A stretch of 64,000 nt of DNA from Naegleria gruberi. Taxonomy: Eukaryota. Positions within the stretch are counted from its first letter, which is position 1. Every line of letters begins with the position of its first letter. Positions 9,454 through 61,398 of the stretch are shown piece by piece. Both the position numbers and the translations under genes were made by a program. The stretch lies in assembly GCA_000004985.1 (NCBI GenBank), contig GG738845.1; one strand, 5' to 3'. A model generated the notes under the pieces. It ran no database searches. It was not told where the DNA came from and was given only the letters and a program-made list of their open reading frames with translations.

Positions 9454-9580
9454 TTTTTTACTCTAAACTGGAGTCGATCAAAGGAATAATGGTTCAGAAA
9501 TGAACCTGTAACAGGTTCAATAATTTAAAAACTATTTACAATAATATTAAAAAATAGTAAAAATTATTATTAATAAAAAA

Positions 9581-16764: not shown

Positions 16765-17869
16765 GATGACAGAGTAGTATACTGATTATATAATAACAAT
16801 GATAGTAGTGGTTGATTAATTTGATGATGACAATAATTATTAATAATTAAATAACTTTGATGACTATTCAATAAGTAAAGCATAAAAAAAACCGTTAAAT
16901 AAATAGTAAACTAATAAAAGTGATGTGATGTGTAAATGAGATTGTAGACACTCTTTTTCTTATTGTAACAACTTGATATTATTATTCTCTCGATATCAAC
17001 CGACAATTTTTGACGTCTATTATCCTAGCAGTAGTGATAGTAGTAGTAGTTCAATGATGTGAATGTGATCAATAGTGAATTCCAATATTTTTGTAGGAAT
17101 CCAATAAGTGTGTGATGATCAGCGCTTAGAGTTTTTATACTTGAGTATTCTAAACTCTCAACAACCAAAGAAGATGAAGTGAAATAGAATTTCTAATGTG
17201 ATGATGAACAGTTATTTTGAACTGTCGATTGAGTGGATTGTTTTTTTGCGTTGAGGAGCGTCATCTCCCGCGTTTTTAAAAACCCTTTATATACTAAGCT
17301 CTAAAAATATTTTGATGTGGCTTGATGGCACAGGATTTGAACTATTAATATTTTGCTCATGATGGAGCAATGCAATGCTCTGATTGCACAATCAAATGCC
17401 AACTTCATGATTTGTTGGTTGACTAAGAAGGATTGATACGGAAGGAAGAAACCGAGATTGTTACAATACATCATCATGTCTTGTTGTATGATGGGTCTTA
17501 AAGAAGAGTTTAGAGTTTTTCCAAAAATGTTCATAGTATTTTCCAATATAAATGTACCATTCAACCAAAAATACTGTCAATGCTTTTACAAAAGATACTT
17601 ATAACTACTACACTTTAAGTGAGTTTTTGGTTCTTTGAAATATGTATCAGTTTCGAACAAATAGAGTTTCATCAATTTGCATGTCCTTAATAAAAGTCAT
17701 CAAACGTTCCGACGTATCTAGTGTTTTATTGAGGTAAAATTCATCGTTTGTTAAGTTATCATATTTCAACTAGAAATCATCCTTTTTTCTGAAATGTCAA
17801 GTTGTGTAATGTTGTGACATCTTATTGCCCCAATGACCTGTCTATGTCACCATTCCAAAAGTCAAAAAA

Positions 17870-24291: not shown

Positions 24292-24556
24292 TGTTTTTGC
24301 TTTTTTTCAAAAAAATTAAAATCAAAATTTTTGATGATTTAAAAATGTAAATTCAATCAAAAATTAAAGAACACAGGAAAATATTTTGAAACATGTTAAG
24401 AAAGAGTACTAATTAGAGGATTTTTTATGTAATTTGTAAATGTCCCCTCTCGCCTTGGTATTGTCCTAATGTGGCTTTTACGATTGTGATGTGAGAATCA
24501 GTTTCGAATACAGCAATATAAGAAGGATAAAAAACTATCAAAACATCTCTCAGAAA

Positions 24557-25999
24557 ATGCGTCCATTATTACTTGGCAAACACTCTACCCATTCTAATAG
24601 TGTAGGAACGTTTCAACAACAGGATAATCATCACCAATATATATATCCCAATAATAATAATGGCCTTTCGAATAATAATCAACTAAAATCCAATAGTCCT
24701 AATTCGTCTCATGATAACATGACGCCTCTCCTTTTAAAAAATAGAATGACAGCTCCTAAAGCAATTGATAAAGAAATTAGTAAATGGTCTTGTCAAGATG
24801 TTGGTATTTGGTTAGATTGGATGAAACTATCACACTTGAAACCGATATTTATTCAAAATCAGATAAGTGGAGATGAATTATTGGAATTAACGGATGCTGA
24901 AATAATTAATGATTTGAAAGTTAGGGACGAATATGAACGAAAGTTAATTAAAGAATTAATTGATAATAGGGAAGTTTGGATGAAACGAGGAAGTAAAAAA
25001 CTTTCAAATGATAGTTTGGATTCTTTGGAAGAATATCCGAAACCAATTTCACCCATTAACATGAGTCCACAAGCAGTGAAATATCAAGTTTTGAATCAAA
25101 AACCTATATTTCCCAATACAAAAAGTTCATTAGAATTGGATGAATTTTCAGATTGTGATGATTTGACAAGTGTTGGAGGAATATTTCTTGACAGATCAAC
25201 TATTGCTTCTCAAAAATTGGAAGTATTATTAGAAACTCTCTATAAGGATGTAGGAAATGTAAAATTCAAAGTTTACAGAGGTAGTGATATTTATCTGATA
25301 ACTCAAAAACGTTCTCAACTCTCATTCACCTCACTCAAATTGGAAATTATTGAGAGATATCAATGTGTCAAACCAACAATACTTTACAAGACGAGAGACG
25401 GTGATTTTATTATAATTAATAGGGACGAGGATTTGGCAAGAGTTATTTCTTCCTATCATCAGAATGGAGGCGATGTTTCTCAGCCAATCAAGTTACAAAT
25501 TGAAACTAATGATTTGCCAATTGGATTGATTACTGCAACATCAACAGGTACGAATAGCAACACAAATTCCAATGCCACAAATCAGATGAGCAATAATCAT
25601 CATAGTTTGCATAGTCCTCGGGAGTGGACTTATTCATCAGATCAATCTCAAAGCTCAACCAACAGCCTACCTCCAAATAATCAACTAGCTCAAAAATTAA
25701 TTGAATTGGAATTGGAAAATATTGAGAAAAATAATTCAATAAGAGAACTGGAAATCAGATTACATAATCAACAGGTTGAACATGAAAAGCAAACAACCTA
25801 TTCAAAATCTTTGCAGGACGATATTTCTACTCTCAAAATGCAACTCTATTCCTATAAGAATGGTACAGTGTTTAACCCATCGGGCTCTTTGAGCAAACAG
25901 GAAGAAATTAGTGAATATATCAAATTATGCAAGTCCTTACAATCATCACTCGCAACTGCTCAGAATAAGCTATTCGAATTACTTGGAAATCAATTGTAA
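24557..25999 (+). CDS. SAM-domain plus PB1-domain protein with a coiled-coil C-terminus.
   Basis: The SAM domain reads 'WSCQDVGIWLDWMKLSHLKPIFIQNQISGDELLELTDAEI'. A PB1-like region reads 'VKFKVYRGSDIYLITQKRSQLSFTSLKLEIIERY...ILYKTRDGDFIIINRDEDL'. The first ATG is at 24557. Confidence 0.5.
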   Translation: MRPLLLGKHSTHSNSVGTFQQQDNHHQYIYPNNNNGLSNNNQLKSNSPNSSHDNMTPLLLKNRMTAPKAIDKEISKWSCQDVGIWLDWMKLSHLKPIFIQNQISGDELLELTDAEIINDLKVRDEYERKLIKELIDNREVWMKRGSKKLSNDSLDSLEEYPKPISPINMSPQAVKYQVLNQKPIFPNTKSSLELDEFSDCDDLTSVGGIFLDRSTIASQKLEVLLETLYKDVGNVKFKVYRGSDIYLITQKRSQLSFTSLKLEIIERYQCVKPTILYKTRDGDFIIINRDEDLARVISSYHQNGGDVSQPIKLQIETNDLPIGLITATSTGTNSNTNSNATNQMSNNHHSLHSPREWTYSSDQSQSSTNSLPPNNQLAQKLIELELENIEKNNSIRELEIRLHNQQVEHEKQTTYSKSLQDDISTLKMQLYSYKNGTVFNPSGSLSKQEEISEYIKLCKSLQSSLATAQNKLFELLGNQL

Positions 26000-26017
26000 T
26001 TTATACATTTTGTACAC

Positions 26018-27196
26018 TTAATAACAAATAAATGACTTTTCAGGATCAAAAGCATTTTGAGCACTAATTGCCTTTGGTTGCCACTCATCCTCCACAAAAC
26101 TTCCTTCAACCTTAATTTGCTTTTTTTCTCCTTTTCCATTCTTTGATGCAAAGAGGAAAGATCCAGAACTGTTTGCTGGTGTTTGGTTAAAGTTCTTAGA
26201 TTCATAGGTAGTCCCACCAGGCATCACCCAAGTACCAGTCTTGATTTGACCATTCTCCCAATGTGCTGCCTTATATGTACTATTATTTGAAGCAAAGTAA
26301 TAGTCACCCACTCCATGTTTTTGGTTATTCTTCCATTCTCCATTGTAAATGTCACCATTTGCATAGTACATAATACCCTTTCCGTGCTTTTTACCATCAA
26401 AGAATTGGCCAATATACAGAGAACAATCCTTATACCTCATGATTGATTTATCATTGAGTTCAATTGATGGATGTTCTGTATTTTCAGGCACATGTTTTGG
26501 TTCAAGTACAGTTTGTTTCTTGTCCTTACAATAGGATCCTTCATAGAATGGATAAGGCCCATATTTAAGAACATAAAAAACTCTATTTGGTCCAAGTTTC
26601 TTGAATGGTTCCAATGTTGAAATGTAATCTGAAGCTTCTTGTAACTTCAAGTCATCATTTAATTCCTTAGCAAGTATTTCTTTAACTTTTTCATCTTCCT
26701 TCATTTTGACAATTTCCAAATCAACTGGTGGTATCGATTTTTGGGAGTTGTGTTGAGAGTAGTAAATATAGAGACAATCCTTTCCATGTTTCAAGTTTTG
26801 TTCGTAACCTCCCTTGTATTCATCAAAGTTGGAATAGATTGAACAACCCAATCCTTCTCTTTCATTAAATTCATTTACTCCACCCGAATATAATCCAAGT
26901 CTCAAAACCATTTTAATTCTGTTCTCATCTAATTGTTTTGATTCAACAGTAGATGCAATAAATCCTTCCTTATCAAAATCATCCTCAGCTGGCTCATCTT
27001 CTTTTTCACCATCTTCCTTATCCTTTTCTTTTTGATGGGCCTCCCTAGCACTAATATACAAATCCCAAATCATTTTATCAACTTTTTTAAATCCAGTCTC
27101 TTCATCAACCTCATCATAATTGTATGTTGGGGCTTTTACTTCTTCTTCCTCTTGTTCAGAGTTGTTTTCATCATCGTCATCTACGTCTCTTGGCAT
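26018..27196 (-). CDS. MORN-repeat protein with an acidic N-terminus.
   Basis: The reading contains 'YIGQFFDGKKHGKGIMYYANGDIYNGEWKNNQKHGVGDYYF'. Confidence 0.5.
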   Translation of the reverse strand: MPRDVDDDDENNSEQEEEEVKAPTYNYDEVDEETGFKKVDKMIWDLYISAREAHQKEKDKEDGEKEDEPAEDDFDKEGFIASTVESKQLDENRIKMVLRLGLYSGGVNEFNEREGLGCSIYSNFDEYKGGYEQNLKHGKDCLYIYYSQHNSQKSIPPVDLEIVKMKEDEKVKEILAKELNDDLKLQEASDYISTLEPFKKLGPNRVFYVLKYGPYPFYEGSYCKDKKQTVLEPKHVPENTEHPSIELNDKSIMRYKDCSLYIGQFFDGKKHGKGIMYYANGDIYNGEWKNNQKHGVGDYYFASNNSTYKAAHWENGQIKTGTWVMPGGTTYESKNFNQTPANSSGSFLFASKNGKGEKKQIKVEGSFVEDEWQPKAISAQNAFDPEKSFICY

Positions 27197-27223
27197 TTTT
27201 TTTGAATAGATGTTGTAAATTTA

Positions 27224-27267
27224 TTTGGCGCCAAACATTTTAAAATCATTTCAGCGCCAAAAAAAAA
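27224..27267. promoter_or_regulatory. A 70-bp bidirectional promoter carrying a palindromic E2F/DP-like site TTTGGCGCCAAA (27224..27235) and a second GCGCCAAA half-site (27252..27261).
   Basis: The site lies between the divergent ATGs of the MORN gene (27196, minus strand) and APC1 (27267, plus strand). The same motif is found upstream of other cell-cycle genes in the window. Confidence 0.5.
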
Positions 27268-30200
27268 TGAAAAATCATCATCACAATCCTGTTCTCACGC
27301 TCATCAACAAGGAACCTCTATCACTTTCGAATAGTAAATACACACTAACGAAGATATTCACATTTATAAACAAGGGAAGAGAGGAGAGGATCGTAATTCA
27401 AATACCTACGGAATTAAATAACAAGGAATTAGAGCCTCCACAAGTTATTTGGTATTATGGAAGTTCGGATGCTCTCCGAGTACACAGAAAATATAAATTT
27501 AGCAGTCATCAACATCATCCGAATATTCCTATTATTCCAAATGATGTTTGCTTGTGTACTTTCTCATCAAATGAAAAAATGTTGTGTATATTATTGGATA
27601 ATTCAAGGATTGAAATTTATGGCGAGTCTGGAAGATCTTTTATTGTTTCTTTGCCATGTAAAATGAGCAAAATTTGGAGCTTAAATGATGAATATTTATT
27701 AGTGGAACGGAAAATAGTCAACCCAGATCCATCTAGCACTATTCCTATTATTTATTATTTAACACATCCATTGGAAGATTTAAAAGCTCTTGCATCTGTT
27801 GTTGATAATCAATCAAATGATATGGAAGATGATATATTAATGACTGAGCCAATATATGATTACTTGAAAAGTGAAGAGGAAGTCATTGCTTACATATTTT
27901 TGAACTTGTTCATGATTACCTTCAATACTAACACCAAAATATTGTCAATATATTCAATAATGGAAGAAGGTTTTGTTCAAAGAATACCATATGCTGATAA
28001 TAATGATTTCTCAGACTATTTGAAATGCAATTTGGAAACAGTTCAAATTTCAATCTTTCCACAAAATAATTTTGGTACTGAGTATACCCTCTTTTTGATT
28101 AATAACAATAGCCTATTTGCTTTCACCATCTTCAGAAATGATCTAGAAGAGGCATTCATTCTTAAACCAAAATTTTTCAAAGAAGGTGTTGTATCCATTT
28201 CTGAATTTAACTACCCTCTAGCAAATGAAACACTTTTTAATGGAAATATAGAGGGATTCTTACATTTGATGATCTTGGCAGAAAATTCCAATTACTCTTT
28301 AATATTAGTTTTGGATGGTGAGTTCATCATGTGGGAACAAGCCCTTGACAGTCAATATTCAAAGATTGAACATCTTGTGGACAATAGACTCTCCCTTAAA
28401 ACAGCCGACTACTCTCTAAGATATAGACTTGATATTTGCCCTAATTCGAAACTAGTACAAGATTGTCTCTCAGTCTTTCAATCAGTCCTAACAAAGGACT
28501 TATTTTCGAGTATTTTCTACGACTTTCAAACATCTAGGATTGGAAATGCTAATGACTGGGATATTTTCATTAACCTGTTAAATTATTTAACATTTGGAGT
28601 TGAACCAAATAGTCCCACCACTCAGGAATCTGATCCATGGAAATTAATGGAACTTATCCATACAAAAAATAGTGCCACATCAAGTCAAATATTCAATACA
28701 TCCAAACTGAGAACAAACAAACAGGTACTTATCCAAAACTTGCCTTTGATTCTGATTTCAATACACTTACTCTACGAAAATTACAAATTACACACCTCAG
28801 AGTGGAACAATGTAGAAACTCTTGTCAGATACCTTTTCAATCTTTCAAACAAATTGAAATGGAAAGCATTTAGTGAAGTTTACCAAAGGGACTTTAATTA
28901 CACCTTGACTTTGACAGTGCCATCTAATCCAGTTGACATTGAGTTCCCGGTTGTTGAAAAGATTAAATTCCTCAACAATTACTACACAACTGGTATAATT
29001 GCACCAACCATTTTAGGATGGATTGAAGAAATATTTATCAATAAGAGTTTAAATGTTGATCTAATGTATCCTTCAATCACTAATTGCTCGGCAACAAGTC
29101 TTTCAAGAAAGATTTGCAGGTTTTTCTCTTTACTTGTTACCAATAAGGAAGATCTTTACAATGTTGAGAGCAATAATAACAGTGTTTCAATGGATATCAA
29201 CGGTTTACAAACAGGGCTACTTGATTTACCTCCACACGAACGTGTAGCAATAGCTTTATTACAAGAGGGCTTCTCTAGTGTTGATGGATTGAGTTTTTTA
29301 CCATTTAGTGTCTCACTTCCAATAAGAGAGGCTTTAGTACAATGTAGAAACAGCATTCAACCTGTAACCAGAACCCCTGAATACTGTAAGCTCATAGAAA
29401 GAGAGGATTTGGCTGTCAATAATCAAGCCCAATCTGAATCCGAAGTTCTACTGGATGGAAATCAAATCGTTTCAGAATTTACAAAAACGCTGGGAACAGG
29501 AGTCCCTTCTATTGCCAGTAATCAAGATTCTGAGGATGATATAGGTCATATGATTTGGAGTGAAGATAGGAGACTTGAGCAAGTGAGTAAAATGCTAGAT
29601 AGTAGTATACCTACTCAGATTCAAAAGCATACACTTCAACTTAGCGAGGATGATTTGGATGGTTTTGATCCTAACGATGCACCAGAATTACAACGTAAAA
29701 TCCTACTCAACATGAAGCAACAAGTTCTTTCATTCTGTATTGGAAGAGGAATGCTTTCCATTGCCAGCAAGAAGAATAATAATTCAGGATCTGTTTCTAA
29801 TGATACCACGAGTAATATTTTGACAATACCTCCAATAGTTTTATCATCCAAACTTAAAAGAAATAGAGCTATTATGACCATAGATGTATCAAAAATAGTA
29901 CCAGAAAATGAAATTTCTGCCTCGTGCAGCACTCAATGGGCTGAATTCCATAATGGGGTGGCCTCTGGATTAACAATTGGAAGAGACTCTAAAATAACGA
30001 AAGAGTGGATAATGTTCCACAAGCCAAACAAGAGGGCTGGACAGTTTATGAACAAGACTTCAAACGATAGTGTCTCTCATGCTGGCCTCTTATTAGCCTT
30101 AGGTCTACAAGGTCATTTGACATGTCTTGGACCAACTGATATTTATGGCTATCTTCAACAGAGACACGAAGCAACCACTATTGGAATTTTACTAGGATTA

Positions 30201-32462
30201 TCATGCTCATATATTGGAACACAAGACCAATATATTACAAGATCACTTTCACTCTATGTTCCTTCCCTTGTTGTTGGAATGAGCGATATGGAAATGCCAA
30301 TGGAAGTAAGTGGTGCTGCACTTGTTGGCATTGGTTTATTATATATGGGAAGTGGTCATAGATTTATGACTGAAGTACTATTGGGCGAATTGGCAAGACC
30401 ACCAAACGATAATTCCACCAATTCAAGAGAAAGTTATTCACTTTCAGCAGGTTTTGCACTTGGATATGTCCACTTGGCCAAGGGTGCCAATGGAAGCAGT
30501 CATGAACTCAAAATGGATCAAAGACTTCTTTCCTACATGACTGGAGGAAGTAAACGACCAGAGTTTGACACATTTGCAATGATGGCATCCAAATCAAAGT
30601 CTCAAATGATACAAAAAGGAGGAAAAGGTCAAAATACTAGTGAGTTTGTTAACACCTCTTGTTCAAGAATTAAGGAAAATGAAAAGTTTGTCAATGTGGA
30701 TGTGACTGGACAAGGTGCTTGTATTGCTTTAACTTTGAAATACTTGAAAACACACGACCTTACAATTGCCTCTGAAATGAAAGTTCCAGACACCAAATAC
30801 ATGTTGGACTATGTCAGACCAGATATGATCATTTTGAGAATCGTTGGATCGTCTCTAATTATGTGGGATCATATTAAGAATACTGATGAATGGATCAAAT
30901 CCAAACTTCCAGGTGTACTGAATAATACTGCACCAATATCTATTGTTGAGAGCAGTGAACTCTCAAAGATATATGCCTATTCTGTTAGTGGATGTTGTAT
31001 GGCAATTGGATTGAAATATGCTGGATCCCACGACACGAAAGCATACAATCTCTTACTTGGACTGTTACAACAAGTCATCAAATCAAAACTCAAAATATTC
31101 TTGAATAATGAACAAATGCAAATACCATACTCTGTCAATCTAGACAAATACACAACTGATAGAGCTACAACTGTTATTCTATTGAGTATTTGTTGTGTGA
31201 TGGCTGGCAGTGGTAACATTGAAGTTATACGTATCATCAAATCATTAAGACAGAAATATGTAGCATCACCAGCTACTCAACAGGGAGGATATGGCATACA
31301 TATGGCTTTGTCTATGTCTTTGGGTTTACTCTTCTTGGGAGGTGGACGTTGTTCACTGAGTACAAATGATAGATCTATTGCTGCTCTTCTTTGTTCTATT
31401 TACCCAATTTTCCCTCAAACTACAACTGACAATAGATACCATTCACAAGCCCTTAGACACATGTATATTCTTTCCACAGAAAATAGACTTATAGAAACTG
31501 TCGATATTGACACCAAAGAAAGATGTCACGTACCAATTCAAATAGAAACTACTCATGGCGATGTTCTACACAAACTTTCTCCTTGTTTGATTCCAGAGGC
31601 TCATCTTCTTAAAAAGATTACAACCATGAATGAGAGGTACTATCCTCTAACTATTAGTGAATTCCCACTTAAGAGCCATATTATTAATGTAAAGAAGAAA
31701 TCAGGATATTTGACTTACAAGGATGATCCTAAAGGAATAAGATCAACTGTACATTCTAACTTTATATCAAACCTGGTTGATCAAGATCCTGAATCTCTTG
31801 TTAAATTATTCGAAAAAATGTCCTATCACACTCATATTGGACCATATGTGAAATATAGAATCTTTACTCAGAATAACATCTCATCGGATGATAGAAATAT
31901 TGCCAACGCCATCAATTCCCTCTCACTTAATGAGCATACCTATGGAAATGTTGCCCTCATGCTCTATCACGCTCTAACTGAGTCGCTGACAAATGATTGC
32001 CCAGATGTTTTGTACCTATTTGAGTGTATCCTTAATTCTCTAAAGATCATCACAGACTCTAAGAATTGCACTCTTTCCAAATCAATTTATACCTCATGTT
32101 TTAAACAACTGTTCTCGTACTATAGTTCGAGGGATCATTTATTACAATCGAGAAATTCTACAATTGAACCAATCAAGCCCCTTATTTCTATTCACTTTAT
32201 AGAATGCGTAAAATCGTATTTGGATAATTATTTCTCTTCACTTTCAATAGATTGGACAAAATTGTCAAACAAGGAACTAGGATTGGGAGCCTATTGCTTA
32301 TTCTACAACCTTCCTTACCTTCACCTCTTGAAAGATTGTATCAAACAAAATCAAAAAGTCATGAACAGAGAGGCCCTTATTATTTACCTTCTTTCAATCC
32401 TTTCTCATTCCTCCATCACTCTCCCACACATTGAAAATATTATTTCATACTTGTCATCATAA
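27267..32462 (+). CDS. Anaphase-promoting complex subunit 1 (APC1).
   Basis: A 1730-aa protein with PC repeats: 'HAGLLLALGLQGHL', 'IGILLGLSCSYIGT', 'GAALVGIGLLYMGSGH' and 'SAGFALGYVHLAKG'. Confidence 0.6.
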   Translation: MKNHHHNPVLTLINKEPLSLSNSKYTLTKIFTFINKGREERIVIQIPTELNNKELEPPQVIWYYGSSDALRVHRKYKFSSHQHHPNIPIIPNDVCLCTFSSNEKMLCILLDNSRIEIYGESGRSFIVSLPCKMSKIWSLNDEYLLVERKIVNPDPSSTIPIIYYLTHPLEDLKALASVVDNQSNDMEDDILMTEPIYDYLKSEEEVIAYIFLNLFMITFNTNTKILSIYSIMEEGFVQRIPYADNNDFSDYLKCNLETVQISIFPQNNFGTEYTLFLINNNSLFAFTIFRNDLEEAFILKPKFFKEGVVSISEFNYPLANETLFNGNIEGFLHLMILAENSNYSLILVLDGEFIMWEQALDSQYSKIEHLVDNRLSLKTADYSLRYRLDICPNSKLVQDCLSVFQSVLTKDLFSSIFYDFQTSRIGNANDWDIFINLLNYLTFGVEPNSPTTQESDPWKLMELIHTKNSATSSQIFNTSKLRTNKQVLIQNLPLILISIHLLYENYKLHTSEWNNVETLVRYLFNLSNKLKWKAFSEVYQRDFNYTLTLTVPSNPVDIEFPVVEKIKFLNNYYTTGIIAPTILGWIEEIFINKSLNVDLMYPSITNCSATSLSRKICRFFSLLVTNKEDLYNVESNNNSVSMDINGLQTGLLDLPPHERVAIALLQEGFSSVDGLSFLPFSVSLPIREALVQCRNSIQPVTRTPEYCKLIEREDLAVNNQAQSESEVLLDGNQIVSEFTKTLGTGVPSIASNQDSEDDIGHMIWSEDRRLEQVSKMLDSSIPTQIQKHTLQLSEDDLDGFDPNDAPELQRKILLNMKQQVLSFCIGRGMLSIASKKNNNSGSVSNDTTSNILTIPPIVLSSKLKRNRAIMTIDVSKIVPENEISASCSTQWAEFHNGVASGLTIGRDSKITKEWIMFHKPNKRAGQFMNKTSNDSVSHAGLLLALGLQGHLTCLGPTDIYGYLQQRHEATTIGILLGLSCSYIGTQDQYITRSLSLYVPSLVVGMSDMEMPMEVSGAALVGIGLLYMGSGHRFMTEVLLGELARPPNDNSTNSRESYSLSAGFALGYVHLAKGANGSSHELKMDQRLLSYMTGGSKRPEFDTFAMMASKSKSQMIQKGGKGQNTSEFVNTSCSRIKENEKFVNVDVTGQGACIALTLKYLKTHDLTIASEMKVPDTKYMLDYVRPDMIILRIVGSSLIMWDHIKNTDEWIKSKLPGVLNNTAPISIVESSELSKIYAYSVSGCCMAIGLKYAGSHDTKAYNLLLGLLQQVIKSKLKIFLNNEQMQIPYSVNLDKYTTDRATTVILLSICCVMAGSGNIEVIRIIKSLRQKYVASPATQQGGYGIHMALSMSLGLLFLGGGRCSLSTNDRSIAALLCSIYPIFPQTTTDNRYHSQALRHMYILSTENRLIETVDIDTKERCHVPIQIETTHGDVLHKLSPCLIPEAHLLKKITTMNERYYPLTISEFPLKSHIINVKKKSGYLTYKDDPKGIRSTVHSNFISNLVDQDPESLVKLFEKMSYHTHIGPYVKYRIFTQNNISSDDRNIANAINSLSLNEHTYGNVALMLYHALTESLTNDCPDVLYLFECILNSLKIITDSKNCTLSKSIYTSCFKQLFSYYSSRDHLLQSRNSTIEPIKPLISIHFIECVKSYLDNYFSSLSIDWTKLSNKELGLGAYCLFYNLPYLHLLKDCIKQNQKVMNREALIIYLLSILSHSSITLPHIENIISYLSS

Positions 32463-33516: not shown

Positions 33517-33533
33517 ATTTTGGCGCCAAAAAA
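33517..33533. promoter_or_regulatory. E2F/DP-like site TTTTGGCGCCAAAAAAG.
   Basis: It lies 32 bp upstream of the ATG of the BUB1-like gene. Confidence 0.45.
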
Positions 33534-33564
33534 GTTGTTAAAATGAAAATTTAAAATAAAAAAA

Positions 33565-36099
33565 ATGAGTTCTCAACTGCACTTGAAACGTCAACAAAAA
33601 CAAATTCAAGATGCAATCGATAAATACTACTCTGGAATATCTAATGACAATGCTATGGATATAAAAAAGGATACACAATTATTATCTGGTCTTGTTGGAT
33701 ATCTTTCCGGATTTCAAGAGAGTGATTTGGCCTTTGAAACAAGAGGTGATGTCATTGAGAGATTTTTCGAAAAGTATTATAACAGTTTTATGAATGGTGG
33801 TAATTATCCACCTGAATTATATTCCGATAAAACAATTTGGGATTTGTGGCTTTTATATGCAGAGGCTCATACCAATGATCCTATTCCACACATTCAAACT
33901 CTACTTGAATTTGCTCCTAAATATCCAAAGTTATTTGAGGTCTGGGCCACTTGGTCGAGAAGAACAGGACGTATTGATGATGAATTAACAGCATATGAGG
34001 AGGCTGAAACGAGAGGTGTTGTATCCGAATTGTTATCGAGCATGAAACAAGACAGATCCGAATATTTCCAACCTCCACCATCACAACAACAAACAATTCC
34101 TGAACCTAAGATTAAAACCACCACCACCGTAACTAATACTGTAATCAAACAACCTGTTGCACATCAATCTGTGGAAACATTGGTTAACAATCCAAGACCA
34201 CCTTCACCAACCCCACAAAATTATTTGATTGGATATGACAAGAATCTAATCTTTACTCCAGGTGCAGAGTTTACTTTTGAGGAATTGAGAGCAATGCACT
34301 ATTTAAATACCACTGATTTAATGATTAATCACAAACAAACAATACCTAGTTCATCATCAATTTCACACAACCAATCTTTAATTGAACAACCTAAGCATCA
34401 TGATTCCTCTATTCTTATGAATAAGAATTTTGAAAAACCATCAAGCAAACCTCAACAAAAAGACGACGACTTTGAATTTGATTTTTCAAGTGATATTACC
34501 ACAGTACATGCAAGAAAATCAATGGCTGCAACTCCTACTTCTTACGCTCAACATACTATTGCCAGCTTTTTTGAGGGAACCATTGATACTGAAATTGAAA
34601 ACAATTACTTTGAACAACGAAAGTTCCGTAAAGTGCAAGAACAAGAGAAAAAGAGAAAACTTGATGAAATTTCACAATCAACAAATAATAATTTTGCCAT
34701 ACATGAAGATACAACAGCTGAAATTAAGAAATCTAGGCTGACAGCTCAACCATCCAGTAGTACCTTTAAAATACCATCTCAGACATCTTCTGGCTTTCAA
34801 AATACAAGTCTTCAACAAGAACGTTCATTCTCTCAAAGAAATAGATCCCTAAGTGCATTCCATCAGTTTAATGATACAGGAGATGAATCAGGTCTCTATT
34901 TTGGAGATGAATCTAACATTTCAAAAACTTTCATTGTTGATAGACAGCAAGAAAGTGCGATATCATTGGAAGGAATATCAGCCCTTATTTCAAAATACAC
35001 AAATAATGGAGTAATCAATCCGTACATGGAAGATATACGAAAAGTGTATACTAATATTGTTAACATAACTAATTGCTTTAAAGACAGTCGTATTACTGAC
35101 TGTAAAGGAGTTGAATCTATAGATTTAAAAACTATTCTGCTGGAGCTAAGTAAAAAGAAGAAAGGTATCGACTATAATACTCAAACATTAAGCTTGAAGT
35201 TGAGTACAAAGACATACCTTGCCGAAGAAGCACTATCTGAACATGTGATCAAAATACAGGATGTAAGAAGTAACAATGGAATTAATACCAAATCATTTGC
35301 CTTGAAATTTAAGCCACCAAATGATTTCTATGAGTACTATGTGATCGATCAGCTGTATAGAAGAATACCAGAGAAGGAAAATCATAGATTCCCAAATATT
35401 CAAAGAGTTTATGTTATGGATAATGATATTCTATTGATGGAAAACCTTGTAAATAACATTACTCTCACACAGGCAATATCACAAGCAAAAATTGAGGAAA
35501 CAATTGCTTTGTACTATACTTTAGAACTTCTCAATATTTTGCAAACTCTGCATAATAAGGCAAACATTACACACAATAATATTTCTCCATCTAATTTATT
35601 GCTTTTAAATGAAGATACTGATCTATCTGATTGGAGTATAGATGGAAAGGGTTGGAGTAATAAGGGTCTACTGCTCACCAACTTTTCCAGGTCTATTGAT
35701 TTAGAACTATTTCCAAACCGTGTTGTTTTCCAAAGTGAACCCAAAACATTACCAGAAGTTTTCAAATCATCAATACAATATCCAAACAAGTGGAAATATG
35801 CATCAGATACTTGGAGTGTTTGTAACATCATCCACCAAATGCTTTTTAAGAAGGACATGGAGGTAACAACGAACGCTCAAGACAAGTATCTAATTAAGGA
35901 ATCCATAAGGAGATTCTGGAAATTTAGAGATGTTTGGCAAACCATTTTCGATACTTTACTAAATCTTGACCAGACAAAGAGTCCAGATTATTACCAATTA
36001 ATAGAAATGTGTCAACAGGCGTTAGGAACAAATGGAGACACAGTTAAAGCTCTTTTCTTGAGATTCATTGTCTCACTTTCTACTCAATTAAAACACTAA
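33565..36099 (+). CDS. BUB1/Mad3(BubR1)-like spindle-checkpoint protein with a degenerate C-terminal kinase-like domain.
   Basis: The N-terminal Mad3/BUB1 homology region 'LYSDKTIWDLWLLYAEAH...LFEVWATWSRRTGRIDDELTAYEEAETRGV' matches the 'YSDPRFLNLWL...FYISWA' pattern. The C-terminal kinase-like region carries 'HNNISPSNLLL' in place of HRDLKPEN, so it is probably a pseudokinase. Confidence 0.5.
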   Translation: MSSQLHLKRQQKQIQDAIDKYYSGISNDNAMDIKKDTQLLSGLVGYLSGFQESDLAFETRGDVIERFFEKYYNSFMNGGNYPPELYSDKTIWDLWLLYAEAHTNDPIPHIQTLLEFAPKYPKLFEVWATWSRRTGRIDDELTAYEEAETRGVVSELLSSMKQDRSEYFQPPPSQQQTIPEPKIKTTTTVTNTVIKQPVAHQSVETLVNNPRPPSPTPQNYLIGYDKNLIFTPGAEFTFEELRAMHYLNTTDLMINHKQTIPSSSSISHNQSLIEQPKHHDSSILMNKNFEKPSSKPQQKDDDFEFDFSSDITTVHARKSMAATPTSYAQHTIASFFEGTIDTEIENNYFEQRKFRKVQEQEKKRKLDEISQSTNNNFAIHEDTTAEIKKSRLTAQPSSSTFKIPSQTSSGFQNTSLQQERSFSQRNRSLSAFHQFNDTGDESGLYFGDESNISKTFIVDRQQESAISLEGISALISKYTNNGVINPYMEDIRKVYTNIVNITNCFKDSRITDCKGVESIDLKTILLELSKKKKGIDYNTQTLSLKLSTKTYLAEEALSEHVIKIQDVRSNNGINTKSFALKFKPPNDFYEYYVIDQLYRRIPEKENHRFPNIQRVYVMDNDILLMENLVNNITLTQAISQAKIEETIALYYTLELLNILQTLHNKANITHNNISPSNLLLLNEDTDLSDWSIDGKGWSNKGLLLTNFSRSIDLELFPNRVVFQSEPKTLPEVFKSSIQYPNKWKYASDTWSVCNIIHQMLFKKDMEVTTNAQDKYLIKESIRRFWKFRDVWQTIFDTLLNLDQTKSPDYYQLIEMCQQALGTNGDTVKALFLRFIVSLSTQLKH

Positions 36100-37544: not shown

Positions 37545-37556
37545 TTTTGGCGGAAC
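37545..37556. promoter_or_regulatory. E2F-like site TTTTGGCGGAAC.
   Basis: It lies 46 bp upstream (higher coordinates) of the ATG at 37499 of the minus-strand channel-like gene. Confidence 0.35.
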
Positions 37557-38600: not shown

Positions 38601-38613
38601 ATTGGCGCCAAAC
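38601..38613. promoter_or_regulatory. E2F/DP-like site ATTGGCGCCAAAC in a divergent promoter.
   Basis: It lies between the ATGs at 38545 (minus strand) and 38769 (plus strand). Confidence 0.45.
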
Positions 38614-39911: not shown

Positions 39912-40046
39912 AACTTGGTTTGTTATTAAATAAACGTTTCAGAGATTTTCATTTCCCTTTTCTTCCATGTCACATTTTACTTCTTTCCCGCGTTAAAAAT
40001 CATCTCTCCTTTCTTTATAATAACATGCTTAGAGGTCATCAATAGA

Positions 40047-40138
40047 TGGTGAGTTGGTCGAGTGGTCTAAGACGACACGTTAAGGTATGATTAATACCGT
40101 GTTCCGCAAGGGCGTGGGTTCAAATCCCACACTCATCA
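40047..40138 (+). tRNA. tRNA-Leu(AAG) with an 11-nt intron, roughly 40084..40094, after position 37.
   Basis: The acceptor stem is GGTGAGT/ACTCATC. The D-arm GTCGAGTGGTCTAAGAC is characteristic of Leu. The anticodon stem ACACG/CGTGT flanks the loop TTAAGG plus the intron. A long variable arm and the T-arm GTGGGTTCAAATCCCAC complete the cloverleaf. Confidence 0.75.
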
Positions 40139-40607
40139 AATTTTGTGACCATCAATTGTGAGAAACTTTAAATACTGATCGATAACACTCTCAGATATCT
40201 CTAAAGTGGTATCGATAGTCATTTCAAATTTATTTATCCATTAAATGATTATAAATTAATTTTATTATTAATTATCAAATTATTTATTGATAATTTAAAT
40301 GGATTAAAATCATTAATTGAATTAAATATTTCACATTTTGATTTTAACATCTTAAATTCTAATAGTATATTAAATAATTCTTGTGCTTTAACTAGTATAC
40401 AAAAACAACACATTATCCCTAGCATTATCCACCCGATTATAAATTATATTAAGATAATATAAAACCAAATAAATCATTTACAAAAGCACATTATATGTAT
40501 TCATTATCTATTGCAATGATTCAATATATTAATATTTTCATCCAATTAGTTTGTAAAAAATCCAAGTTACTAAAAGAGTTAATTGTAAACAAAGTGGATA
40601 GAAAAAA

Positions 40608-42384: not shown

Positions 42385-42398
42385 AATTGCGCCAATTA
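42385..42398. promoter_or_regulatory. E2F-like site AAATTGCGCCAATT.
   Basis: It lies about 205 bp upstream of the CHD ATG at 42603. Confidence 0.3.
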
Positions 42399-48470: not shown

Positions 48471-48479
48471 TTTTGGCGG
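48471..48479. promoter_or_regulatory. E2F-like half-site TTTTGGCGG.
   Basis: It lies 37 bp upstream of the LRR gene ATG at 48516 and 40 bp after the CHD stop. Confidence 0.3.
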
Positions 48480-58054: not shown

Positions 58055-59626
58055 ATGCAAATCTTTTTTGATAACTACGAGCAGTTGGTAGAATTGTTTT
58101 CCCGCCATTTTAAAAAGTTAAATATAAAAAAAATGCCTCAACTTCAATTAAATGTGTTGTTCAGCAATGGAAAGGCAATTTGCTTTTTCCCAACCACATC
58201 ACTACAAACAAGAGAAGAGTTTGAATTGTTCTTGGAAAGAGAGTATGAAAAATTCTATCCTACCGATAGTGTTGCTATAAAAAATGTACAATATCTTTAT
58301 GTAGATAAGAACAATACTCCGATCAAGTTTGAATTGCCAACAAATTGGGATGATATCATTTCAAAGTCTCCAGCTAGGTCTAATATTGTAGAAATAATAT
58401 TTGGCAAAAATCCAATGATTTTTGTGGAATTGGACAATCAACCAAAGCAAAACATTCAATACGAAATTGTTTCACCAATACCAGCATCATCTAGAAAAAA
58501 GCAAGTAGAACGTTCTACTATCAGCAATGTAGCAACTTCACTTGAATTCTCTACAAGTAGTGCAACAAGTAATGATGATGAAAAAGTTGTAATATTTGAA
58601 GAGGATGACGATTCAATTTTTGATAAGTTTATTGAAACTAAAGAATTGGAAAAGAAACAAACTATTTCCCCAGAAATTCCACAATCATCAGCAGTTGTCG
58701 ATAAAAAAGAGAATGAAACACCAGCCACCACCACTACAATTACATCAAACCAAAATTCTCAACCAAGTCAAGATTCTCCAGAAATTGATTTTGATGAAGA
58801 TATTATCTTTTCAGACAATGAGGAACAACATGTGGAAAAACAACTCTTCCCTGAGGAATCTGCACAAAAGAGTCAAGAATCTGACTCTATGGTTATTGAC
58901 GACCTATCTCCTCTTATGGATGACATATTGAGCCAATCAAATGAAGAACCTGTAAAAATGACTGATGAGCTTAATGAAGCACTCTGTACACAAGCTGTAG
59001 ATACACTCCTCACTCGTGATGAATCATCTCAAAAAGAAGAGGTTACCAAGAAGGTTGACCAACCAGAACAATCAAAGCAAAGTCAACCTCTATCAACACC
59101 TCAAAAATCATCATCTCAACCAAAATCTTCACAAGAGAAGAAGGTGGCACCAGTTTTTACTCCAAAATCCTCACAAGAGAGGAAACAGGAACAAAAAGCT
59201 ACTCCAAAATCCTCAACACAAGAGAAGAAAGTAATTACAACACCAAAATCTTCACAAGAAAAGGTAACAACTCCAAAAGCCTCTCAAGAACAAAAAGCCT
59301 CACAAGAGAAGAAACAAATTACAACCCCAAAAGCATCTTCACAAGAAAAGGCAATAACACCAAAATCCTCACAAGAGAAGAAACCAGCAACAAATGAAAA
59401 TAACTCAACCAACAAGCCAGTCAAACAATTAACACCAAAAACTCCTATCTCAATATTATCAAAGGTGAAGAATTACAAAACACCTAACCCTTCACAAAAT
59501 CCTAGAGAGCAAGTTGCAGAAAAATCAAAGAGCACAACCAAAAAGAGGAAGAGAGATCAACTTTCTTCTATCATTGCTAAAAAGGCCATCGACTCATTGT
59601 CTTCCAGTAAGAAGAAAAATAAATAG
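58055..59626 (+). CDS. Hypothetical protein with a Lys/Ser/Gln-rich tandem-repeat C-terminus, probably nuclear. The true start may be the A-run ATG at 58133.
   Basis: The ORF starts 27 nt after the COQ3 stop. The in-frame ATG at 58133 has the typical AAAAAAATG context. The C-terminus carries 'TPKSSQEKK' repeats and a 'KKRKRD' NLS-like element. Confidence 0.45.
   Translation: MQIFFDNYEQLVELFSRHFKKLNIKKMPQLQLNVLFSNGKAICFFPTTSLQTREEFELFLEREYEKFYPTDSVAIKNVQYLYVDKNNTPIKFELPTNWDDIISKSPARSNIVEIIFGKNPMIFVELDNQPKQNIQYEIVSPIPASSRKKQVERSTISNVATSLEFSTSSATSNDDEKVVIFEEDDDSIFDKFIETKELEKKQTISPEIPQSSAVVDKKENETPATTTTITSNQNSQPSQDSPEIDFDEDIIFSDNEEQHVEKQLFPEESAQKSQESDSMVIDDLSPLMDDILSQSNEEPVKMTDELNEALCTQAVDTLLTRDESSQKEEVTKKVDQPEQSKQSQPLSTPQKSSSQPKSSQEKKVAPVFTPKSSQERKQEQKATPKSSTQEKKVITTPKSSQEKVTTPKASQEQKASQEKKQITTPKASSQEKAITPKSSQEKKPATNENNSTNKPVKQLTPKTPISILSKVKNYKTPNPSQNPREQVAEKSKSTTKKRKRDQLSSIIAKKAIDSLSSSKKKNK
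59111..59390 (+). repeat. Degenerate in-frame tandem coding repeat of roughly 36-45 nt, CCAAAATCYTCACAAGAGAAGAAA and variants, in seven or eight copies.
   Basis: The DNA unit is visibly reiterated and encodes repeated 'TPKSSQEKK'/'TPKASQE' peptide units. Confidence 0.6.
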
Positions 59627-59833: not shown

Positions 59834-61349
59834 TTAATCATCTTCATAATCACTATCACTATCCTCAATAGCACTGGTTTTCTTCTTTTTGGTTGGTGGT
59901 TTTGTAGGTCTCTTCTTCTTTTGGTTGGGTGTAACTTGTTTCTTTTCAAAAACAACTTTTTCATCATCTTCAGGAAGTGAAGGGACTGTTGGTATGTAAA
60001 AATTTTCGTCTTGAAACGTGTTCATATCACTAGGTTTGGCAAAAATGTCTATTATTTGGGATTCGTCTTCTAAATTCGAAGGATACAGAGCTGTTTTGAA
60101 TTCATTTTCACAATCGTTATCGTATTCATTTTCTCTTTCAATATACATTTCATTACAATCTATTTCATCAAAATCTGGAGAGAATGCACTCCAATTTTCC
60201 ACAACGTGTTTAGTCCAAAATAAAATATTAGCTCCAATGGTTGCCGTTACAACAACAGGTCTTATATATTTGAAATTTTGAGGATGACACGTTAATGCAG
60301 TTATATTTTCATTATATGGACATTCTAGAATTTTTACAAGCTCACCATAAATAATATATTCATAAATTAGTACTTTGCTTCCATTAGTTGCTAATAAATA
60401 ACTTGAATCATTGTGTACTGTTGTAGAATTCAAGAAGGAGCAGAGTGTATAATTTTCATGCATAATTGCATTCTTAAACTCCTTAATTTTTGTAAAGTTC
60501 ACAAACTCTCCATTTCTTGTCTTTTCAAACTCGACTTTAAAAACATGAATGGCCATTCTAGTATTCACTGCAATATACCCACCATTCTTTGAAAATTCTA
60601 ACTGTACAATAAAGTAAAACTTATTAGTTACTACTTGCTTTGATTTCAAATCAATATTGACATCTTCGGAAATGTGAAATGGTGTATCAACTGGATGTGA
60701 TTGAAATGGAACAACTCTTAATGTTTCTGTATTTACAACTACTATTTGTCCAACAGTGTTTCCGATGAATATATATTTTCCACAAGGTGTGAAAAGTCCT
60801 CCGACACAATCCTTTCTCTTTACCTTGTATTCATGAAGTTTGATTGGAAGTTGTCTCCTCTCATCAGTTTGCCAATTTACAAGAAAAGGTGGATTATCAA
60901 CTGTGCAACAAAGTACTAAACTCCTATTAAAACACATTAAAAATTATTGTAGTACTAAATAATACCTACTCATTAGATGGACAAAGGTAGGTTCTTATCA
61001 GTGGAGTTGGCATTTCAATTTTCTTTATACATCTACGTTCAATTATATCACAAATAAAAACCTTTGTAGAACAAGCCACCAGAATATATCTATAATCTTT
61101 AAACCATTCTATTGCAGAAATGGGATAAGATTCAATCATTGTTATATGTGAAATTAGCGAGAGAGTATCATAGTCATACACTCGCAAGGCTCCATCAACA
61201 CATCCGATGGCAATTAAATTTCCTCTATGATTAAATTTTACAGCAGTTCCCATCTTTTCTGCCTCGCTAAGACTAAAACCCTCTCCCAAGTCTTCCGGAT
61301 AGGCATCAATTAGCTTATCCAGCGAGGAACCCATCATTAAAATATTCAT
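59834..61349 (-). CDS. RbBP5/Swd1 WD40 subunit of the COMPASS/Set1 histone-methyltransferase complex. Two exons: 61349..60970 and 60923..59834.
   Basis: The N-terminus 'MNILMMGSSLDKLIDAYPEDLGEG...NHRGNLIAIGCVDGALRVYDYDTLSLISHI' parallels RbBP5. 'FWTKHVVENWSAFSPDFDEIDCNEMYIERENEYD' matches RbBP5 '[34 protein letters not shown]'. The intron (+ coordinates 60924..60969) has donor GTAGGT and acceptor TTAATAG, and phase checks. Confidence 0.75.
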
Positions 61350-61384
61350 TTTTTTTTAATAATAAATATTATTGTGTGATGTAG

Positions 61385-61398
61385 ATTTGGCGCCAAAT
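61385..61398. promoter_or_regulatory. E2F/DP-like site TTTGGCGCCAAATT.
   Basis: It lies 36 bp upstream of the RbBP5 ATG at 61349 on the minus strand. Confidence 0.45.

What the first reader, a model, noticed from the sequence alone, without database searches (positions are those of the whole stretch)
33517..33533. The same GGCGCCAAA/TTTGGCGG motif sits upstream of a coherent set of cell-cycle and chromatin genes
Close variants of the motif occur 30-200 bp upstream of APC1 (27224), the BUB1/Mad3-like gene (33517), the divergent 37703/F-box pair (38601), the ENaC-like gene (37545), CHD1 (42385), the LRR gene (48471) and RbBP5 (61385). A GCGGGAGA-type site is also present at 17262..17275. I could not find the motif in other intergenic regions I scanned by eye, including those upstream of seryl-tRNA synthetase, Era, the hydrolase, COQ3 and the GPI mannosyltransferase. 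The window also holds a cyclin and SMC4. Together these look like a mitotic/G1-S regulon marked by one element.
Basis: partly seen in the sequence, partly recalled or inferred. Interest (0 to 1): 0.55.

Follow-up and report, generated by a model that had tools for sequence, protein, structure and literature searches.

The report
E2F binding sites in Naegleria promoters
The repeated TTTGGCGCCAAA motif is real and is the classic binding site of the cell-cycle transcription factor E2F, placed just upstream of a subset of Naegleria gruberi genes and conserved in related amoebae; this is an expected but apparently unreported case of a very old regulatory system.

Summary
The window is Naegleria gruberi DNA. 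The 12-bp palindrome TTTGGCGCCAAA occurs three times exactly (27224, 33519, 61386) and once with one mismatch (38601), against 0.002 expected. All eight TTGGCG[C/G] sites lie outside ORFs. Seven sit 10-63 bp upstream of a start codon.

The motif is identical to the human E2F1 HT-SELEX consensus. N. gruberi encodes E2F, DP, DEL and RB. Its E2F recognition helix is essentially identical to that of human E2F4.

Orthologous promoters keep E2F-type sites at the same position for the BUB1-like kinase (N. fowleri and one metagenomic relative) and for the MORN/APC1 divergent pair (N. fowleri and one relative). For RbBP5 the site is kept only in Willaertia, plus one relaxed match, and is absent from three other relatives.

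The "coherent cell-cycle/chromatin regulon" reading is only partly supported. APC1, BUB1 and RbBP5 fit, and CHD1 fits weakly through a distal site. The other carriers are a channel-like gene, an axonemal-type LRR gene and two unknowns. The window's cyclin is a transcriptional cyclin K/L type without the motif. The SMC4 promoter lies outside the window.

Verdict: a new member of a known kind, of moderate interest.

The parts
33519..33530 (.). Perfect palindromic E2F-type site TTTGGCGCCAAA, centre 41 bp upstream of the ATG of the BUB1-like kinase gene
   Evidence: Conserved as TTTGGCGCCAAA at the same distance in N. fowleri and as two E2F-type half-sites in a metagenomic relative. Alignment.
27224..27235 (.). 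Perfect palindromic E2F-type site in the middle of the 70-bp divergent intergenic region between the MORN gene (ATG 27196, minus strand) and APC1 (ATG 27267, plus strand)
   Evidence: E2F-type sites are also present in the orthologous intergenic region of N. fowleri (L003) and of metagenomic locus L004.
27254..27261 (-). Second E2F-type half-site (TTTGGCGC on the minus strand), 6-13 bp upstream of the APC1 ATG
   Evidence: N. fowleri and L004 have a CCCGCCATT site in the equivalent ATG-proximal position.
61386..61397 (.). Perfect palindromic E2F-type site, centre 42 bp upstream of the RbBP5/Swd1 ATG (61349, minus strand)
   Evidence: Gene identity. Willaertia magna keeps GGCGCGCCAAAA near its ATG, and L011 keeps a relaxed core. 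It is absent in N. lovaniensis, L007 and L008/9.
38601..38612 (.). One-mismatch palindrome ATTGGCGCCAAA, 56 bp upstream of the ATG of the unknown gene g37703 (38545, minus strand; NAEGRDRAFT_45285) and 157 bp upstream of the F-box gene ATG (38769)
   Evidence: The variant ATTGGCGCCAAA is itself listed as a human E2F1 consensus. No orthologue could be fetched.
37546..37553 (+). Half-site TTTGGCGG, centre 51 bp upstream of the ASC/ENaC-like gene ATG (37499, minus strand)
   Evidence: Gene Pfam ASC is weak. Conservation not tested.
48472..48479 (+). Half-site TTTGGCGG, centre 40 bp upstream of the LRR gene ATG (48516), inside the 84-bp gap after the CHD1 stop codon
   Evidence: LRR gene matches. 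Conservation not tested.
58098..58106 (+). TTTCCCGCC, 27-35 bp upstream of the in-frame ATG at 58133, which has the usual A-run context. Probably the promoter site of unknown gene g58133; if the ATG at 58055 is the true start, the site is coding.
   Evidence: Neither start matches the public gene model exactly.
42389..42395 (-). Weak, distal site TTGGCGC, 212 bp upstream of the CHD1 first-exon ATG (42603)
   Evidence: Assignment to CHD1 is uncertain.
39984..39992 (+). TTTCCCGCG, which fits the E2F consensus but is unassigned: 73 bp after the F-box stop codon, about 60 bp upstream of an intron-containing tRNA gene, and 620 bp from the hydrolase ATG
17262..17270 (+). It lies in a 1.1-kb stretch without a gene, about 500-600 bp from both flanking ATGs.
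33565..36099 (+). BUB1-like kinase gene (probable target)
   Evidence: 100% identical to an N. gruberi predicted protein. (BUB1 kinase domain, E 2.3e-16).
27267..32462 (+). APC1 gene (probable target)
   Evidence: Apc1_MidN, APC1_3rd, ANAPC1, APC1_C..
59834..61349 (-). RbBP5/Swd1 gene, two exons (probable target in N. gruberi)

Best explanation

Proposed mechanism: E2F and DP each place an RRxYD recognition helix on one half of the GGCGCC/CGCGCC core. The T/A runs on either side strengthen binding, and the full palindrome TTTGGCGCCAAA is the optimal site. The sites sit 10-63 bp upstream of the start codons of a subset of genes, in very short promoters, and in two cases between divergent genes. 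When the cell is not proliferating, the RB homologue would bind the C-terminal transactivation motif of E2F and repress these genes. CDK phosphorylation of RB would release them. This would give co-ordinated expression of mitotic-checkpoint and APC/C genes (BUB1-like, APC1), some chromatin genes (RbBP5, perhaps CHD1) and others.

Shown here: the non-random occurrence, promoter placement and cross-species conservation of the sites; identity with the human E2F consensus; and the presence of E2F, DP, DEL and RB in N. gruberi with a conserved E2F DNA-binding helix.

Inferred: actual binding, RB dependence and cell-cycle periodicity.
For: (1) Motif statistics and promoter restriction.

(2) Identity with the human E2F1 HT-SELEX consensus. 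Both TTTGGCGCCAAA and ATTGGCGCCAAA are listed for E2F1 in PMC5449588. The motif also fits TTTSSCGC.

(3) The source data of Medina et al. 2016 (PMC4862756) contain NgruE2F, NgruDP, NgruDEL and NgruRB.
- NgruE2F has Pfam E2F_TDP and E2F_CC-MB; NgruDP has E2F_TDP and DP.
- The NgruE2F DNA-binding domain aligns to human E2F4 (PDB 1cf7) at E 7e-25. The stretch [23 protein letters not shown] is identical.
- Its C-terminus, ESGEGVSDLF, resembles the RB-binding motif of human E2Fs. That comparison is from my own knowledge.

(4) Phylogenetic footprints.
- In the BUB1 promoter, the 16-nt block TTTTGGCGCCAAAAAA is the only long block shared by N. gruberi and N. fowleri, and it lies at the same distance from the ATG.
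- A more distant relative has CCCGCCAAAA and TTCCCGCC at that place.
- The MORN/APC1 intergenic region carries E2F-type sites in all three species, although the rest does not align.
- Willaertia RbBP5 has GGCGCGCCAAAA near its ATG.
- Strict sites occur in 5 of 9 orthologous promoters against 3 of 35 neighbouring non-target promoters (Fisher P = 0.005).

(5) The flanks of the four palindromes share nothing, so this is a discrete site and not a repeat family.

(6) Precedent: the Dictyostelium RB orthologue represses bub1, bub3, mad2, cdc20, smc2/4, five APC subunits and chromatin genes (PMC3386910).
Against: - There are no binding or expression data for Naegleria.
- Roughly half of the motif-bearing genes have no recognisable cell-cycle or chromatin role.
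- The RbBP5 site is absent in N. lovaniensis and in two further relatives.
- 8 of about 29 promoters is a high fraction for a pure cell-cycle regulon. In the other species' loci it is only about 3 of 35, so this window may simply have been noticed because it is rich in sites.
- Transcription start sites are unknown, so the position relative to the core promoter is inferred from the ATG only.
Confidence: 0.78

Rival explanations
1. The sites are bound by E2F-family proteins but serve as a broad, general promoter element used by many unrelated genes, as suggested for Cryptosporidium parvum, and not as the mark of a cell-cycle regulon.
For: 8 of about 29 promoters in the window carry a site. The carriers include a channel-like gene, an axonemal-type LRR gene and unknown genes. 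In C. parvum, E2F-like motifs (DTTGSCGCCH, TTTGGCGGGAAV) are over-represented upstream of many functional classes and of expression clusters that peak at any time point (PMC3734150).
Against: 20 housekeeping-type promoters in the window lack any such core. Only 3 of 35 neighbouring genes in the other species' loci carry a site. The best-conserved sites belong to BUB1 and APC1, which are classic RB/E2F-regulated mitotic genes elsewhere. Unlike C. parvum, N. gruberi has RB (absence in C. parvum).
Confidence: 0.14
2. A different, non-E2F factor that recognises a GGCGCC palindrome binds the sites, and the likeness to the E2F consensus is coincidental.
For: No binding data exist. Half-sites such as TTTGGCGG and TTTCCCGCC were grouped with the palindrome by similarity only.
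Against: The 12-mer is identical to the optimal human E2F1 site. The N. gruberi E2F recognition helix is identical to that of E2F4. The variants seen in orthologous promoters (TTTCGCGCC, TGGCGGGA, GGCGCGCCAAAA) all stay inside the E2F consensus rather than preserving one arbitrary palindrome.
Confidence: 0.06
3. Chance or compositional artefact: GC-rich words happen to fall in a few intergenic regions, or the sites belong to a dispersed repeat.
Against: Shuffle and composition tests, restriction to the 10-63 bp upstream zone, no flank similarity, and conservation in other species.
Confidence: 0.01

Closest known systems
Animal and plant E2F-DP binding sites of the RB-E2F pathway (consensus TTTSSCGC; the palindromic optimum TTTGGCGCCAAA seen in human E2F1 HT-SELEX; overlapping inverted sites such as that of the DHFR promoter, recalled from my own knowledge)
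   Same: Identical sequence. Promoter-proximal placement. Works in either orientation. The cognate E2F, DP, DEL and RB proteins are encoded, with a conserved DNA-contact helix. The target list includes mitotic-checkpoint and chromatin genes.
   Different: The organism is a heterolobosean amoeboflagellate (Discoba). Promoters are extremely short, with intergenic regions of 70-200 bp, and the sites sit 10-63 bp from the ATG. Binding and RB dependence are untested.
RblA (RB orthologue) regulon of Dictyostelium discoideum (PMC3386910)
   Same: In an amoeba, RB represses S-phase and mitotic genes together, including bub1, several APC subunits, smc2/4 and chromatin factors. BUB1 and APC1 are the best-supported targets here.
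   Different: The Dictyostelium regulon was defined by expression in a knockout. Here only cis-elements and their conservation are available, and the organism belongs to a different supergroup.
E2F-like upstream motifs of Cryptosporidium parvum (TGGCGCCA; DTTGSCGCCH; TTTGGCGGGAAV) (PMC3734150)
   Same: The same palindromic core and the same GGCGGG variant are over-represented in the short upstream regions of a compact, AT-rich protist genome. They were also identified purely by sequence.
   Different: In C. parvum the motif is very widespread, is not limited to cell-cycle genes, and most E2F partners are absent. N. gruberi has RB, and most promoters sampled here lack the motif.

Membership tests
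E2F/DP cis-regulatory site (RB-E2F pathway) | Sequence fits the E2F consensus TTTSSCGC or the palindrome TTTGGCGCCAAA | tested here: met
   Consensus quoted from PMC5449588 and PMC3734150.
E2F/DP cis-regulatory site (RB-E2F pathway) | The genome encodes E2F and DP with conserved DNA-contacting residues (RRxYD helix) | tested here: met
   NgruE2F, NgruDP and NgruDEL sequences from the PMC4862756 source data. Pfam E2F_TDP, CC-MB and DP. Alignment to E2F4 in 1cf7, with an identical recognition helix.
E2F/DP cis-regulatory site (RB-E2F pathway) | A pocket protein (RB) is present to make the sites cell-cycle responsive | tested here: inconclusive
   NgruRB is listed in the PMC4862756 source data. 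I did not check its pocket domains. The likeness of the E2F C-terminus (ESGEGVSDLF) to the RB-binding motif rests on my own knowledge.
E2F/DP cis-regulatory site (RB-E2F pathway) | Sites are non-randomly placed in proximal promoters | tested here: met
   7 of 8 TTGGCGS sites lie within 100 bp upstream of an ATG and none lies in an ORF. Transcription start sites are not known.
E2F/DP cis-regulatory site (RB-E2F pathway) | Sites are conserved in orthologous promoters | tested here: met
   BUB1 2 of 2, MORN/APC1 2 of 2, RbBP5 1 of 5 strict (plus 1 relaxed), against 3 of 35 background promoters. The half-sites at 37546, 48472 and 58098 and the site at 38601 could not be tested.
E2F/DP cis-regulatory site (RB-E2F pathway) | Physical binding of E2F-DP to the sites | not testable with these tools
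   Needs EMSA, DAP-seq or ChIP.
E2F/DP cis-regulatory site (RB-E2F pathway) | Target genes are enriched for replication and mitosis functions and are periodically expressed | tested here: inconclusive
   Only about 29 promoters are available. 3-4 of 9 carriers are mitotic or chromatin genes and the rest are unknown or unrelated. No expression data were accessible.
Upstream promoter element of Pol III / tRNA genes (considered only for the CCCGCG sites at 17262 and 39984) | The same element recurs upstream of other tRNA genes | tested here: not met
   Four tRNA genes in the N. fowleri, N. lovaniensis and Willaertia loci lack it. Two copies of TCCCGCGTT are not significant.

The most novel reading that the evidence does not exclude
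In Naegleria's ultra-compact promoters the palindromic E2F site may do more than modulate transcription. It might act as the main promoter-positioning element, bidirectional in the 70-bp MORN/APC1 gap, at a fixed distance of about 30-60 bp from the ATG. The E2F network might also reach well beyond the cell cycle, to a channel gene and an axonemal-type LRR gene. That would link proliferation control to the amoeba-to-flagellate switch, loosely as E2F4/5 drives centriole and cilia genes in animal multiciliated cells.
Probability: 0.15. Interest if true: 0.55.

Novelty: new member of a known kind. Interest (0 to 1): 0.38.

Why it matters
E2F-DP-RB is inferred to date from the last eukaryotic common ancestor. 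Its cis-elements and targets, however, have been described almost only in animals, plants, Dictyostelium and a few parasites.

Here a discobid amoeba uses the very same 12-bp optimum as human E2F1, and the site is conserved upstream of BUB1 and APC1 across Naegleria species. This supports an ancestral E2F regulon that already included mitotic-checkpoint genes.

It also gives a simple sequence handle for predicting cell-cycle genes, including lineage-specific unknowns such as g37703 and g58133, in Naegleria. That includes the pathogen N. fowleri, where promoter elements are essentially uncharacterised. Two full-text searches of the held library found no paper describing this motif in Naegleria.

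Tried and rejected
- **Chimeric protein query.** I tried to fetch orthologues of six genes at once. Only the longest part (APC1) was found, so the half-sites at 37546 and 48472, the site at 58098 and the palindrome at 38601 could not be tested for conservation.
- **Metagenome scans.** Two scans, one with g37703 and one with a BUB1 alignment, found no relatives.
- **Exact look-up of N. gruberi proteins.** The look-up of encoding contigs failed, so no further N. gruberi promoters could be read, such as those of MCM, PCNA or SMC4.
- **P0004/L010.** This turned out to be a GC-rich unrelated eukaryote and was discarded.
- **Pol III or snRNA-type element at 17262 and 39984.** I considered this because both sites share TCCCGCGTT, an A-run and a TATA-like box, and one lies 60 bp upstream of a tRNA. 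I rejected it because other tRNAs in related species lack it, and two copies are not significant.
- **Rfam.** It found only the tRNA.
- **F-box gene as target of the 38601 site.** Judged doubtful because the site is 157 bp from its ATG and 56 bp from the g37703 ATG.
- **The cyclin as part of the regulon.** Rejected: it is a cyclin K/L/C type and has no motif.
- **Expression data.** The Naegleria differentiation array paper is not held.

Full report
**Source and gene map.** The BUB1-like ORF at 33565-36099 is 100% identical to a Naegleria gruberi predicted protein, and its closest relative is from N. fowleri. The window has about 33% G+C. It is densely packed with long, mostly intron-poor ORFs.

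- APC1.
- A BUB1-type kinase (PDB BUB1 kinase domain, E 2.3e-16). No Mad3/BUB1 N-terminal domain was detectable by Pfam.
- CHD1.
- RbBP5/Swd1 (E 5e-29).
- A weak ASC/ENaC-like gene.
- An RNI-type LRR gene.
- A COQ3-like methyltransferase.
- SerRS, an Era-like GTPase and an Alg9-family mannosyltransferase.
- A lipid-droplet hydrolase.

The "cyclin" is a cyclin K/L/C/T-type transcriptional cyclin. SMC4 is present only as a C-terminal fragment, and its promoter lies outside the window. Nearly every credible start codon is preceded by an A-run. That let me fix 28-29 gene starts, three of which match the public gene models exactly.

**The observation.** The 12-bp palindrome TTTGGCGCCAAA occurs at 27224, 33519 and 61386, and as ATTGGCGCCAAA at 38601.
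- Composition predicts 0.0018 copies of the 12-mer (P about 1e-9).
- GGCGCCAAA gives 7 strand-matches against 0.09 in shuffles.
- All four GGCGCC hexamers of the window lie inside this motif.

Half-site variants:
- TTTGGCGC at 27254 (minus strand).
- TTTGGCGG at 37546 and 48472.
- TTGGCGC at 42389 (minus strand).
- TTTCCCGCC at 58098.
- TTTCCCGCG at 39984.
- TCTCCCGCG at 17262.

TTGGCGS gives 12 matches (8 sites) against 1.76 expected. None of the 8 sites is in an ORF, although ORFs make up 83% of the window. Seven lie within 100 bp upstream of a start codon (binomial 1.6e-9, or 2.7e-4 against non-ORF DNA alone).

Site centres relative to the ATG:
- APC1: -38 and -10
- MORN: -33
- BUB1: -41
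- ASC-like: -51
- g37703: -61
- LRR: -40
- RbBP5: -42
- g58133: -31, if the A-run-preceded, in-frame ATG at 58133 is the real start

The CHD1 site is 212 bp upstream and weaker. I then listed every GCGC, CGCG, CCGCC or CCCGC core in the 150 bp upstream of all 28 starts. Twenty promoters have none at all, including SerRS, Era, GPI-MT, COQ3, the hydrolase, cwf18, the pseudouridine synthase and the exonuclease. Apart from one AACGCGC at -104 (MORN-s, ATG 19060), every core found sits in a T/A-flanked E2F-type context. The flanks of the four palindromes share nothing, so this is a discrete element and not a repeat family.

**What it is.** TTTGGCGCCAAA and ATTGGCGCCAAA are the consensus strings listed for human E2F1 from HT-SELEX (PMC5449588). 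The variants fit the classical TTTSSCGC consensus, with a [C/G]GCGC[G/C] or GGCGGG core (PMC3734150).

The source data of Medina et al. 2016 (PMC4862756) contain N. gruberi E2F, DP, DEL (E2F7/8-type) and RB sequences.
- NgruE2F has the E2F_TDP and CC-MB domains, and NgruDP has E2F_TDP and DP.
- The NgruE2F DNA-binding domain aligns to the crystallised human E2F4 domain (1cf7) at E 7e-25. The recognition helix and wing, [23 protein letters not shown], are identical.
- With the base-contacting residues unchanged, an unchanged DNA specificity is the simplest expectation.
- The C-terminus of NgruE2F (…ESGEGVSDLFL) resembles the RB-binding transactivation motif of animal E2Fs. That point rests on my own knowledge.

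**Comparative test.** There is no synteny around BUB1 between N. gruberi and N. fowleri.

*BUB1.* The N. fowleri orthologue carries TTTGGCGCCAAA about 35 bp upstream of its ATG, as in N. gruberi. It is the only copy in 22.5 kb. In the alignment, the 16-nt block TTTTGGCGCCAAAAAA and the A-run before the ATG are the only conserved stretches. A more distant metagenomic relative (L002, true ATG at 622) has CCCGCCAAAA and TTCCCGCC in the same place.

*MORN/APC1.* The SAM/PB1-MORN-APC1 arrangement is kept in N. fowleri.
- The N. fowleri MORN/APC1 intergenic region has GGCGCGAAAA (TTTCGCGCC) near the MORN side and TCCCGCCATT just before the APC1 ATG.
- A third species (L004) has TGGCGCCAAA and TCCCGCCATTT.
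- Otherwise the three regions do not align.

*RbBP5.*
- Willaertia magna has GGCGCGCCAAAA about 10 bp from its ATG.
- A metagenomic relative (L011) has a relaxed CGCGCCATA core at about -35.
- N. lovaniensis (L005), L007 and L008/L009 have nothing comparable.

*Summary count.* With the strict pattern TT[GC][GC]CG[GC], 5 of 9 orthologous promoters carry a site. Among neighbouring non-target genes in the same loci, 3 of 35 do (Fisher P = 0.005). One of those three is the chromatin gene ADA2 in N. fowleri, with TTTGGCGG at -44.

The BUB1 and APC1 sites are therefore under purifying selection. The RbBP5 site is lineage-variable.

**Mechanism.** The best explanation is that these are E2F-DP (and perhaps DEL) binding sites that couple a set of genes to the RB-E2F proliferation switch. 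Established structural knowledge (Zheng et al. 1999, cited in PMC3734150) says that the E2F and DP winged helices each contact one half of the symmetric CG core, with T/A flanks adding affinity. The perfect palindrome would be a high-affinity, orientation-free site. That suits the two divergent gene pairs. In the 70-bp MORN/APC1 gap the palindrome lies almost exactly midway between the two start codons.

Direct regulation of mitotic genes by RB/E2F has precedent. In Dictyostelium, loss of RblA de-represses bub1, bub3, mad2, cdc20, smc2/4, five APC subunits and chromatin factors (PMC3386910). Binding, RB dependence and periodic expression in Naegleria remain inferred.

The element is real and promoter-specific, and it marks mitotic and chromatin genes, so the core idea stands. 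The set is less coherent than claimed.
- The ASC-like gene has no evident cell-cycle role.
- The LRR gene's best PDB matches are axonemal proteins such as DRC5, LRRC34 and TCTE1.
- The unknowns g37703 and g58133 have no informative homologues.
- The MORN gene shares the APC1 promoter and has no evident cell-cycle role either.
- The F-box gene is probably not the target at 38601.
- The cyclin is not a cell-cycle cyclin.
- The 17262 and 39984 sites are far from protein-gene starts.

A rival reading is that E2F sites are used broadly in Naegleria, as proposed for Cryptosporidium. It cannot be excluded from 29 promoters. The motif-free housekeeping promoters and the low carrier rate in the other species' loci argue against it.

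**Novelty.** The factor family, the motif and the logic are textbook. Full-text searches of the held library for Naegleria with E2F, and for Naegleria with the motif string, found no description of this element in Naegleria or other Heterolobosea. I therefore rate it a new member of a known kind. It is useful for cell-cycle evolution and for annotating Naegleria genes, but not surprising given the conserved DNA-binding domain.

Noticed in passing
window 40047-40139 (+): An intron-containing tRNA gene (Rfam tRNA, 47 bits; ARAGORN could not resolve the anticodon) lies between the F-box gene and the hydrolase gene.
   Followed up: partly
window 17262-17292 and 39984-40029: An identical 9-mer TCCCGCGTT, followed by an A-run and a TTTATA-like box, occurs twice. 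One copy is about 60 bp upstream of the tRNA and the other lies in a stretch without a gene. It could be an E2F-type site or another element. tRNAs in related species lack it, so a Pol III role is not supported.
   Followed up: partly
window 16765-17869: A 1.1-kb stretch has no ORF over 90 aa and no credible Rfam match, which is unusual in this dense window. It may hold an unannotated non-coding RNA or a spliced gene.
   Followed up: partly
window 9491-9519: A near-perfect 19-nt palindrome, TGAACCTGTAACAGGTTCA, with an adjacent GGTTCAGAAATGAACC, lies in the 127-bp divergent intergenic region between an F-box gene (ATG 9453, minus strand) and cwf18 (ATG 9581, plus strand). It is unique in the window and is a candidate binding site for another factor.
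   Followed up: partly
window 24491-32462 versus L003 7187-15352: The gene order SAM/PB1, MORN, APC1 is conserved between N. gruberi and N. fowleri. The neighbourhood of the BUB1-like gene is completely different in the two species (L001).
   Followed up: partly
window, all gene starts (for example 33558-33567, 27259-27269, 61349-61358): Almost every start codon is preceded by a run of 5-9 A residues (AAAAAAATG). This is a strong start-context signal that helps choose the true ATG, for example 58133 over 58055.
   Followed up: partly
L003 24274-24280 (N. fowleri): TTTGGCGG lies 44 bp upstream of the ADA2 (SAGA/ADA chromatin complex) gene in N. fowleri. This is a further candidate E2F target found among the 'background' genes.
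   Followed up: no
L003 1612-1623 (N. fowleri): The palindromic E2F-type site TTTCGCGCGAAA lies in an intergenic gap between a palmitoyl thioesterase gene and an unknown gene, directly followed by ATG. An uncalled gene or exon may start there.
   Followed up: no
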